Assembly: GCF_016903815.1 (NCBI RefSeq)
Contig: NZ_CP069973.1
Reading direction: 5' to 3' (one strand)
DNA length: 64,000 nt
From: Escherichia coli
GTDB lineage: Bacteria; Pseudomonadota; Gammaproteobacteria; Enterobacterales; Enterobacteriaceae
This document shows, one piece after another, positions 7,172 through 8,549 of the stretch. The notes beneath the pieces were generated by a model. That model saw nothing but the letters and a program-made list of their open reading frames with translations, had not been told where the DNA came from and made no database searches. The position numbers and the translations under genes are program-made. Position 1 is the first letter of the stretch, and every line of letters starts with the position of its first letter.

Positions 7172-7180
7172 CCATGTGTT
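7172..7180. repeat. IS1 target-site duplication, left copy (CCATGTGTT)
   Basis: Same 9-mer directly flanks both IS1 ends. Confidence 0.85.
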
Positions 7181-7235
7181 GGTAATGCTGCCAACTTACT
7201 GATTTAGTGTATGATGGTGATTTTAAGGTGCTTGC

Positions 7236-7511
7236 GTGGCTTCCATTTCCATCAGATGTCCTTCCTGCTCCGCTACTGAAGGCGTGGTGCGTAACGGCAA
7301 AAGCACTGCCGGACATCAGCGCTATCTCTGCTCTCATTGCCGTAAAACATGGCAACTACAGTTCACTTACACCGCCTCTCAGCCCGGTACGCACCAGAAA
7401 ATCATTGATATGGCCATGAATGGCGTCGGATGTCGCGCCAGTGCACGCATTATGGGCGTTGGCCTCAACACGGTTTTACGTCACTTAAAAAACTCAGGCC
7501 GCAGTCGGTAA
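7236..7511 (+). CDS. insA: IS1 InsA (91 aa)
   Basis: Translation [43 protein letters not shown]... is recognisable as IS1 InsA; GTG start. Confidence 0.9.
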
Positions 7512-7933
7512 CCTCGCGCATACAACCGGGCAGTGATGTGATTGTCTGCGCTGAAATGGACGAACAGTGGGGCTACGTCGGTGCTAAATCACGTCAGCGC
7601 TGGCTGTTTTACGCGTATGACAGGATACGGAGGACGGTTGTGGCGCACGTCTTCGGTGAACGCACTCTGGCCACACTGGAGCGTCTTCTGAGCCTGCTGT
7701 CGGCCTTTGAGGTCGTGGTATGGATGACGGATGGCTGGCCGCTGTATGAATCACGCCTGAAGGGAAAGCTGCACGTTATCAGCAAGCGTTACACTCAGCG
7801 CATTGAGCGACATAATCTGAATCTGAGACAACATCTGGCAAGGCTGGGACGGAAGTCACTGTCGTTCTCAAAATCGGTGGAGCTGCATGACAAGGTCATC
7901 GGGCATTATCTGAACATAAAACACTATCAGTAA
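7430..7933 (+). CDS. insB: IS1 InsB (expressed as InsAB' transposase by -1 frameshifting)
   Basis: Translation ...[27 protein letters not shown]... is recognisable as IS1 InsB; overlaps insA in the -1 frame. Confidence 0.9.
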
Positions 7934-7948
7934 GTTGGAGTCATTACC

Positions 7949-7957
7949 CCATGTGTT
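7949..7957. repeat. IS1 target-site duplication, right copy (CCATGTGTT)
   Basis: Identical to 7172..7180. Confidence 0.85.
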
Positions 7958-8114
7958 TATGAATAAAGGGCAGGGAAAGATCACGCAACGCTGCTTTTTT
8001 GTACTAAATAATTCGCACTAAATATTCAATAATTGAGATATTCCTTATTACCTAAAGCTGTTTTCCATTGCTTATACATGATCAAATACTCCTTACATAA
8101 TTAAGGAGAACAAA

Positions 8115-8549
8115 ATGAAACTTAAAAAATTGATGGAACATATTTCTATTATCCCCGATTACAGACAAGCCTGGAAAGTGGAGCATAAATTGTCAGATAT
8201 TCTACTTTTGACTATTTGTGCCGTTATTTCTGGTGCAGAAGGTTGGGAAGATATAGAGGATTTTGGGGAAACTCATCTCGATTTTTTGAAGCAATATGGT
8301 GATTTTGAAAATGGTATTCCTGTTCACGATACCATTGCCAGAGTTGTATCCTGTATCAGTCCTGAAAAATTTCACGAGTGCTTTATTAACTGGATGCGTG
8401 ACTGCCATTCTTCAGATGATAAAGACGTCATTGTAATTGATGGAAAAACGCTCCGGCACTCTTATGACAAGAGTCGCCGCAGGGGAGCGATTCATGTCAT
8501 TTCTCGCGTCAGTCCTTGCGGGGAGCAGGCTTTCGTAATCTTGCCCTGA
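8115..8549 (+). pseudogene. yhhI: Truncated H-repeat-associated (ISAs1-family) transposase, N-terminal 144 codons only
   Basis: Translation [64 protein letters not shown]... matches the H-rpt/YhhI N-terminus; diverges and stops after ...GAIHVIS, where full-length proteins continue ~230 aa. Confidence 0.8.

What the first reader, a model, noticed from the sequence alone, without database searches (positions are those of the whole stretch)
7172..8549. IS1 insertion with intact 9-bp target duplication beside a truncated H-repeat transposase
IS1 (7181..7948) is flanked by identical CCATGTGTT 9-mers, which suggests a recent simple insertion. Just downstream the H-rpt (ISAs1-family) transposase gene is cut after ~144 codons. 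K-12 has a full-length yhhI here and no IS1, so this end of the Rhs element has been remodelled.
Basis: partly seen in the sequence, partly recalled or inferred. Interest (0 to 1): 0.3.

Follow-up and report, generated by a model that had tools for sequence, protein, structure and literature searches.

The report
IS1 insertion beside a dead H-repeat transposase
An ordinary, intact IS1 mobile element has jumped into junk DNA at the far end of an E. coli Rhs toxin locus, next to an older, already inactivated H-repeat transposase gene. It is a lineage marker of the ST405 clonal group, not a new kind of feature.

Summary
A 768-bp IS1 lies at 7181..7948, with 23-bp inverted ends (20/23) and identical CCATGTGTT 9-mers at 7172-7180 and 7949-7957. 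Related genomes carry the uninterrupted site with a single CCATGTGTT, so this is a true target-site duplication.

The element is IS1F-type (763/768 identical to K-12 IS1F). Its insA, insB' and A6C frameshift motif are intact. It landed in a remnant that RefSeq annotates as an IS630 pseudogene, 13 bp upstream of the H-rpt left end.

The H-rpt description needs correcting. The gene is not cut at its 3' end. It has an internal 713-bp deletion (nt 388-1100 of yhhI) with a frameshift. Residues 1-130 are homologous to YhhI and the next 14 are out of frame. Both element ends and the yhhJ junction are retained.

The two events are independent. The deletion allele occurs in 275 of 5,426 complete E. coli genomes. 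Of these, 177 have the IS1 site empty and 93 have the IS1, and the members I could type belong to the ST405 group.

Of the 93, 13 lack the left flank. In the four I examined, three different 4.8-5.7-kb deletions start exactly at the IS1 left end. Every element here is a known kind, and interest is low.

The parts
7172..7180 (.). Left copy of the 9-bp target-site duplication CCATGTGTT
   Evidence: repeat family D15. The empty-site relative L002 has a single copy.
7181..7948 (+). IS1 element, IS1F-type, 768 bp, apparently intact
   Evidence: 763/768 identical to the K-12 IS1F copy next to fecI. RefSeq annotates 'IS1 family transposase, programmed frameshift' at the same place in strain 7/2.
7181..7203 (+). 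IS1 left terminal inverted repeat (23 bp)
   Evidence: (I1), 17, 75: matches the right repeat at 20/23.
7926..7948 (-). IS1 right terminal inverted repeat (23 bp)
   Evidence: (I1).
7236..7511 (+). insA, 91 aa (zinc ribbon plus HTH)
   Evidence: Pfam Zn_ribbon_InsA 5.9e-20 and HTH_Tnp_IS1 4.9e-30.
7485..7495 (+). TTAAAAAACTC, the A6C programmed -1 frameshift motif that fuses insA to insB'
   Evidence: A -1 shift here gives a 232-aa InsAB' that scores 245 bits against NCBIfam transpos_IS1, cut-off 100.
7430..7933 (+). insB' reading frame (IS1 DDE catalytic part)
   Evidence: Pfam DDE_Tnp_IS1 1.3e-74, full model length.
7949..7957 (.). Right copy of the target-site duplication CCATGTGTT
7074..7180 (+). 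Target DNA: left part of a short remnant annotated as an IS630-family transposase pseudogene. It continues at 7958-7979 after the IS1.
   Evidence: PGAP annotation of the uninterrupted allele in L002 (8375-8503). My own HMM scan of the 30-aa piece did not confirm it.
7971..8548 (+). H-rpt (ISEc1, ISAs1 family) remnant of 578 bp. Both ends are present and 713 bp are missing internally.
   Evidence: H-rpt copies at other loci (ybfD, ydcC) match the equivalent of window 7971..8548, or 7971..8501. End repeats CAGGGAAAGATCACG and CAGGGCAAGATTACG match at 13/15. Identity to K-12 yhhI is 94-95%.
8115..8549 (+). Residual H-rpt ORF of 144 codons. Residues 1-130 are YhhI-like; residues 131-144 are out of frame.
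   Evidence: Only DDE_Tnp_1_assoc is retained, the DDE_Tnp_1 catalytic domain is absent, and the match to NCBIfam transpos_ISAs1 covers model positions 1-102 of 314.
8501..8502 (+). Junction of the internal 713-bp deletion (yhhI nt 388-1100), with no microhomology
   Evidence: blastn against MG1655: window 7965-8501 matches L004 5229-5765 and window 8502-8760 matches L004 6479-6737.
8703..9827 (-). yhhJ, the conserved chromosomal gene that bounds the Rhs/H-rpt region, as in K-12
6530..7008 (+). sel1-repeat gene, the last cassette of the Rhs distal array. It is frameshifted in this window.
   Evidence: One nt is missing from a C-run at ~6600 compared with the intact 159-aa allele in L002.

Best explanation
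Two separate, ordinary mobile-element events lie side by side at the distal end of the RhsB-locus element, between nikR and yhhJ.

Event 1 is older. The resident H-rpt/ISEc1 copy (the yhhI homologue) lost 713 internal bp. This removed the DDE catalytic domain and shifted the frame. What remains is a 578-bp shell with both terminal repeats and a 144-codon ORF that encodes only the N-terminal DDE_Tnp_1_assoc domain.

Event 2 is younger. An IS1F-type IS1 transposed into a non-functional remnant annotated as IS630, 13 bp upstream of the H-rpt left end. Staggered cleavage and repair of the target produced the 9-bp CCATGTGTT duplication. This happened once, in an ancestor of the ST405 clonal group, and was inherited vertically.

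The copy has everything IS1 needs: both inverted repeats, insA, insB' and the A6C frameshift site that yields the InsAB' transposase. Some descendants have lost 4.8-5.7 kb of adjacent orphan Rhs toxin/immunity cassettes, starting exactly at the IS1 left end. That is the classic signature of IS1-promoted adjacent deletion.

Shown here: the anatomy, the empty site, the order of the two events, and the deletion junctions in relatives. Inferred: the mechanism of each step, a single origin for the insertion, and the absence of phenotypic effect (the target is a pseudogene remnant).
For: IS1 anatomy and target duplication. Empty site with one CCATGTGTT and a 9-bp overlap of the flanking alignments.

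Counts among 5,426 complete E. coli genomes:
- left flank present in 257, of which 80 are joined to IS1 and 177 are uninterrupted
- right junction present in 93
- H-rpt deletion junction present in 275, always one copy and always chromosomal

Deletion mapped against MG1655 yhhI and against a full-length copy in JNE23-011. Domain loss.

Lineage: YDC107 is O102:H6, ST964, phylogroup D (PMC6035167). WCHEC96200 is ST405, phylogroup D (PMC5762679). WCHEC4533 is among the genomes compared in an ST405 study (PMC9037040). An O102:H6 isolate is among the hits. chuA is present in the window.

IS1-anchored deletions, right junction intact in all:
- DA33137: IS1 abuts window 2099; junction unique to 1 genome
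- 98192 and 98224: IS1 abuts window 2359; 2 genomes
- ECE204: IS1 abuts window 1529, inside the RHS core gene
Against: Nothing contradicts this reading. The limits are these:
- Activity of this IS1 copy is inferred, not measured.
- The adjacent deletions could also arise in two steps: a second IS1 insertion in the same orientation, followed by IS1-IS1 recombination.
- A single origin for the insertion rests on identical junctions and on the few strains whose sequence type I could find in papers. I built no phylogeny.
- The IS630 identity of the target rests on the RefSeq annotation only.
- No full-length H-rpt closer than about 96% to this copy is in the collection, so the deletion cannot be dated.
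- 10 of the 13 genomes that have only the right junction were not examined.
Confidence: 0.93

Rival explanations
1. The IS1 caused the H-rpt truncation. On this reading the two lesions are one event, for example an IS1-promoted deletion running rightward into the H-rpt gene.
For: Only proximity. The IS1 right end is 167 bp from the H-rpt start codon, and IS1 does promote adjacent deletions, as seen on its left side in relatives.
Against: The deletion junction (8501|8502) is internal to H-rpt and lies 553 bp from the IS1 end, with intact H-rpt sequence and an intact target duplication in between. The same deletion allele occurs in 177 genomes with an uninterrupted IS1 target site. It also occurs in JNE23-011, in a different upstream context.
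Confidence: 0.01
2. The IS1 did not arrive by simple transposition. It arrived by homologous recombination or import of a segment that already carried it, or through a cointegrate that later resolved, so the 9-mers say little about a local insertion event.
For: The Rhs distal region is recombinogenic and mosaic. Resolution of a cointegrate would leave the same product.
Against: The flanks on both sides are colinear with the empty allele to the base, and exactly 9 bp are duplicated. The flanks are 100% identical over 1,224 bp to an empty-site genome (H32). Import of an already occupied segment only moves the insertion event to a donor and does not change what the structure is.
Confidence: 0.04
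3. The matching 9-mers are a coincidence or an assembly artefact of a repeated element.
For: IS1 is multicopy: 12-14 IS1-end matches in strain 7/2. Repeats can be misassembled.
Against: 80 independent complete assemblies show the same left junction and 93 show the same right junction. The chance for one fixed pair of positions is 3.8e-6, and this is the only such pair in the window. Empty-site alleles exist.
Confidence: 0.01

Closest known systems
IS1F of E. coli K-12 (IS1 family; the copy between fecI and yjhU)
   Same: 768 bp, 763/768 identical. Same inverted repeats, same insA/insB' layout and same A6C frameshift motif.
   Different: There are five substitutions. The K-12 copy is annotated with an internal stop, whereas this one has open insA and insB' frames. 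The chromosomal site is different. PGAP names the protein only 'IS1 family transposase'.
yhhI / H-rptB (ISEc1, ISAs1 family) at the rhsB-yhhJ junction of K-12
   Same: Same chromosomal position and orientation next to yhhJ, and the same element ends. Nucleotide identity is 94-95%, and 127 of the first 133 residues are identical.
   Different: 713 bp (nt 388-1100) are missing, the frame is shifted and the DDE domain is lost, leaving a 578-bp shell. The upstream Rhs cassettes differ from K-12: a longer orphan toxin/immunity array here, against yhhH and a HEAT-repeat pseudogene in K-12.
IS1-promoted adjacent deletions (classical IS1 genetics; my own knowledge, also mentioned in bioRxiv 10.1101/2024.07.17.603846)
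   Same: In DA33137, 98192/98224 and ECE204 one IS1 end and its flank are unchanged. On the other side, DNA is missing from exactly the IS1 terminus out to a variable point.
   Different: These are seen in relatives, not in the window itself. One-step intramolecular transposition cannot be told apart from a second insertion followed by IS1-IS1 recombination.
Rhs 'C-terminal tip' / orphan toxin-immunity arrays downstream of an rhs core gene
   Same: The window has an RHS core gene followed by partial RHS fragments and small immunity-like genes (NTF2-fold, DUF6258, HEAT repeat, sel1 repeat), with an H-rpt at the end. This layout is described for E. coli Rhs elements in PMC3032704.
   Different: Nothing unusual. 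The last cassette (sel1) is frameshifted in this window.

Membership tests
IS1 family insertion sequence | Length about 768 bp with imperfect terminal inverted repeats of about 23 bp | tested here: met
   768 bp; inverted repeats match at 20/23.
IS1 family insertion sequence | insA (zinc ribbon plus HTH) and an overlapping insB' (DDE) frame, joined by a -1 frameshift at an A6C motif to give InsAB' | tested here: met
   Pfam Zn_ribbon_InsA, HTH_Tnp_IS1 and DDE_Tnp_IS1. TTAAAAAACTC at 7485-7495 and a 232-aa fusion. NCBIfam transpos_IS1 equivalog, 245 bits against a cut-off of 100.
IS1 family insertion sequence | Direct duplication of the target, typically 9 bp, and an uninterrupted target in relatives | tested here: met
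   CCATGTGTT occurs twice in the window. There is a single copy in L002 with a 9-bp alignment overlap. 177 genomes have the empty site.
IS1 family insertion sequence | Transposition activity of this copy | not testable with these tools
   Support is indirect only: open reading frames, and three different deletions anchored at its left end in relatives.
ISAs1 family (H-rpt / ISEc1) | Single transposase of about 378 aa with DDE_Tnp_1_assoc plus the DDE_Tnp_1 catalytic domain | tested here: not met
   Only DDE_Tnp_1_assoc (residues 8-94) is present. K-12 YhhI has both domains. The match to NCBIfam transpos_ISAs1 covers model positions 1-102 of 314. This is a defective derivative, not a functional member.
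ISAs1 family (H-rpt / ISEc1) | Terminal inverted repeats at both ends of the element | tested here: met
   7971-7985 and 8534-8548 match at 13/15. The boundaries agree with matches to H-rpt copies at other loci.
ISAs1 family (H-rpt / ISEc1) | Full element length (1,291 bp, inferred here as 578 + 713) | tested here: not met
   578 bp remain, and 713 bp are missing compared with K-12.
ISAs1 family (H-rpt / ISEc1) | Evidence of mobility (more than one location for this derivative) | tested here: not met
   The deletion junction occurs once per genome, always at this locus type, in 275 genomes. PMC3032704 states that H-rpt transposition has not been observed.
IS630 family (remnant that served as the IS1 target) | Recognisable similarity to an IS630-family transposase | tested here: inconclusive
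   PGAP annotates a 129-bp pseudogene fragment with an internal stop. My NCBIfam scan of the 30-aa open piece found nothing significant.

The most novel reading that the evidence does not exclude
The IS1 at this site may act as a recurrent deletion generator in the ST405 clonal group, repeatedly pruning the orphan Rhs toxin/immunity array. At least three independent deletions of 4.8-5.7 kb end within 830 bp of each other, and one truncates the main Rhs toxin tip. Loss of orphan immunity or toxin cassettes could then change inter-strain competition. A more speculative reading is that the residual 144-aa H-rpt N-terminal protein is expressed, possibly helped by read-through from IS1, and acts as a trans-regulator of the other H-rpt copies.
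Probability: 0.08. Interest if true: 0.35.

Novelty: already known. Interest (0 to 1): 0.12.

Why it matters
It matters little beyond bookkeeping. It gives a clean, PCR-testable structural marker for the ST405 clonal group (the IS1/CCATGTGTT junction) and a second, older marker (the H-rpt 713-bp deletion) shared by about 5% of complete E. coli genomes. The locus is also a small natural example of how an active IS erodes the orphan-cassette end of an Rhs element. It does not touch any open question about IS1, H-rpt or Rhs biology.

Tried and rejected
- I tested whether the IS1 truncated the H-rpt. It did not: the deletion is internal, 553 bp from the IS1, and present without the IS1 in 177 genomes.
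- I looked for microhomology at the deletion junction. Against K-12 alone the junction looked ambiguous (TCT). Against the full-length copy in JNE23-011, which has TCTC on the right side, the junction is blunt with 0 bp of homology.
- I tested whether the 578-bp H-rpt shell behaves as a mobilised non-autonomous element. There is one copy per genome in 275 genomes, so there is no sign of mobility.
- An Rfam scan of window 1-14000 found no RNA family.
- I tried to confirm the IS630 call on the target with HMMs. The fragment is too short and the result is inconclusive.
- I tried to explain all 13 genomes that have only the right junction. Sampling resolved four of them, representing three events. 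The other 10 were not identified because the search output cannot list them selectively.
- The broader counts of 110 and 112 exceed 93. This is probably because IS1 copies lying near other H-rpt or yhhI copies get joined by the place-merging rule; EA2 is an example. I did not verify this genome by genome.
- AT-richness does not explain why the three deletion endpoints cluster. The whole 1500-7200 stretch is 30-43% GC, apart from 5400-6000.

Full report
**What is in the sequence**

The window is all but identical to E. coli strain 7/2 (NZ_CP023820.1 from 3,904,964), with 1 mismatch in the first 50 kb. At 7181..7948 there is a 768-bp IS1. Its 23-bp terminal inverted repeats match at 20/23. CCATGTGTT lies immediately outside both ends, at 7172-7180 and 7949-7957. 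This is the only place in the 64-kb window where identical 9-mers lie 777 bp apart.

**Is the duplication real?**

I removed the IS1 and one 9-mer and searched 5,426 complete E. coli genomes. Strain RIVM_C019217 carries the reconstructed empty site at 100% identity over 1,224 bp (H32). The window's left and right flanks align to that record with an overlap of exactly 9 bp, and the record has one CCATGTGTT there. This is a textbook target-site duplication from a simple insertion.

**What kind of IS1?**

It is 763/768 identical to the IS1F copy of K-12 next to fecI. The parts are all present:
- insA, 91 aa, with the zinc ribbon and HTH_Tnp_IS1 domains
- the insB' frame, matching DDE_Tnp_IS1 over the full model length
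- the TTAAAAAACTC frameshift motif at 7485-7495

A -1 shift at the motif gives a 232-aa InsAB' that scores 245 bits against NCBIfam transpos_IS1, where the cut-off is 100. The K-12 IS1F copy is annotated with an internal stop, but this copy is open.

**Where did it land?**

In genomes with the uninterrupted allele, RefSeq annotates the target as a 129-bp IS630-family pseudogene fragment with an internal stop. I could not confirm that call independently. The target 9-mer lies 13 bp upstream of the H-rpt left inverted repeat. The site is in junk DNA, so I infer that the insertion has no direct phenotypic effect.

**The H-rpt gene**

Against MG1655, window 7965-8501 matches up to yhhI nt 387, and window 8502-8760 resumes at yhhI nt 1101. 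So 713 internal bp are missing.

The frame shifts at the junction. Residues 1-130 are YhhI-like, with 127 of the first 133 identical. Residues 131-144 are read out of frame from the retained last 37 nt of the gene. Compared with a full-length copy in JNE23-011, the junction is blunt with no microhomology.

Both element ends survive, at 7971-7985 and 8534-8548, matching at 13/15. These boundaries are the same ones that delimit matches to H-rpt copies at other loci. The remnant encodes only the DDE_Tnp_1_assoc domain. The DDE_Tnp_1 catalytic domain found in YhhI is gone. The junction with the yhhJ side is as in K-12.

**Order and spread of the two events**

| Feature | Genomes (of 5,426) |
|---|---|
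| H-rpt deletion junction (one chromosomal copy each) | 275 |
| Left flank of the IS1 site present | 257 |
| Left flank uninterrupted (empty site) | 177 |
| Left flank joined to IS1 | 80 |
| Right IS1 junction | 93 |

The H-rpt deletion therefore came first and is independent of the IS1.

All the IS1-bearing strains whose type I could find in papers belong to the ST405 clonal group. YDC107 is O102:H6, ST964, phylogroup D (PMC6035167). WCHEC96200 is ST405, phylogroup D (PMC5762679). WCHEC4533 is among the genomes compared in an ST405 study (PMC9037040). An O102:H6 isolate is among the hits, and chuA in the window fits a non-A/B1 phylogroup. I infer a single insertion in an ancestor of this group. 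I did not build a phylogeny.

**What happened after the insertion**

Thirteen genomes have the right junction but lack the left flank entirely. I found four of them by sampling. In each, the DNA to the left of the IS1 is missing from exactly the IS1 terminus outwards:

| Genome(s) | IS1 left end abuts window position | Missing | Calls |
|---|---|---|---|
| DA33137 | 2099 | 5,081 bp | 32, 38, 39; unique junction, |
| 98192 and 98224 | 2359 | 4,821 bp | 57, 58, 61, 62; two genomes, |
| ECE204 | 1529 | 5,651 bp | 66, 69, 70 |

In ECE204 the deletion cuts the C-terminal tip of the main RHS core gene, which now ends in a stop codon inside the IS1 repeat.

These are three independent events with the signature of IS1-promoted adjacent deletion. 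A second IS1 insertion followed by IS1-IS1 recombination would give the same product. The deletions remove the orphan toxin/immunity cassettes. The other 10 genomes were not examined. The three endpoints lie within 830 bp of each other, and base composition does not explain this.

**Comparison with what is known**

Every component is a known kind:
- IS1 with a 9-bp duplication
- a defective H-rpt/ISEc1 at the end of an Rhs element; PMC3032704 describes the H-repeat in Rhs elements and notes that its transposition has not been observed
- an Rhs core gene followed by orphan tips
- IS1-anchored adjacent deletions

RefSeq already annotates both the IS1 and the ISAs1 pseudogene at this site. Rfam finds no RNA family in window 1-14000.

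**Verdict**

The feature is already known in kind and is of low interest. Its practical value is as a pair of lineage markers, and as a small example of an active IS eroding the distal end of an Rhs element.

Noticed in passing
window 2100-7180, compared with L009, L017, L018 and L022: In relatives, three different deletions (5,081, 4,821 and 5,651 bp) start exactly at the left end of this IS1. They remove the orphan Rhs toxin/immunity cassettes. The endpoints at window 2099, 2359 and 1529 cluster within 830 bp. Ten more genomes that lack the left flank were not examined.
   Followed up: partly
window 6530-7008: The sel1-repeat gene, the last cassette before the IS630 remnant, is frameshifted by loss of one C in a C-run near 6600. 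The allele in RIVM_C019217 is an intact 159-aa ORF. Some IS1-bearing genomes (E597, E118) still list a sel1 protein.
   Followed up: partly
window 6978-7003 versus 7966-7991: A second sequence that resembles the H-rpt left end (AGGGAAAGATCATCC) lies at the 3' end of the sel1 gene. It is 81% identical over 26 nt to the true H-rpt left end, and may be a solo end of another H-rpt copy.
   Followed up: no
L008 (JNE23-011) 4854-6590: A full-length yhhI-type H-rpt lies directly upstream of the deleted copy. Its right end abuts the equivalent of window 7146/7147 inside the IS630 remnant, and an RhsC-type element lies upstream. The locus is a mosaic shaped by H-rpt and Rhs exchanges.
   Followed up: partly
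L015 (strain EA2) 4121-4818: An unrelated IS1A, in the opposite orientation, is inserted between the left end and the start codon of the RhsC-linked H-rpt (ybfD). So IS1 insertions just inside or beside H-rpt left ends recur. This probably also explains why broad searches gave 110-112 matches rather than 93.
   Followed up: partly
L012 (K-12 derivative) 956-1653: The K-12 IS1F copy is annotated with an internal stop, whereas the 99.3%-identical copy in the window has open insA and insB' frames.
   Followed up: partly
window 8549-8702: The spacer between the H-rpt right end and the yhhJ stop codon holds a REP-like sequence (GCCTTATCCGGCCTA) and a hairpin (TGCGTAGACCCTATAAGCTTACGCA) that could be the yhhJ terminator. 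Both are also present in K-12.
   Followed up: no
window 1612-7008: Downstream of the RHS core gene lies a long array of small immunity-like genes and RHS fragments: a hypothetical gene, NTF2-fold, DUF6258, pentapeptide pseudogenes, a HEAT-repeat yibA-like gene, an RHS core fragment and sel1. The array is much longer than the K-12 rhsB tail (yhhH plus a HEAT pseudogene).
   Followed up: no
window 33622-36831 and 38386-47338: The window carries extra genes not checked against K-12: an ArsR/SmtB regulator, a permease and a 407-aa hypothetical protein after arsRBC. The chu/shu heme-uptake cluster lies between dctR and yhiD, which fits phylogroup D.
   Followed up: no
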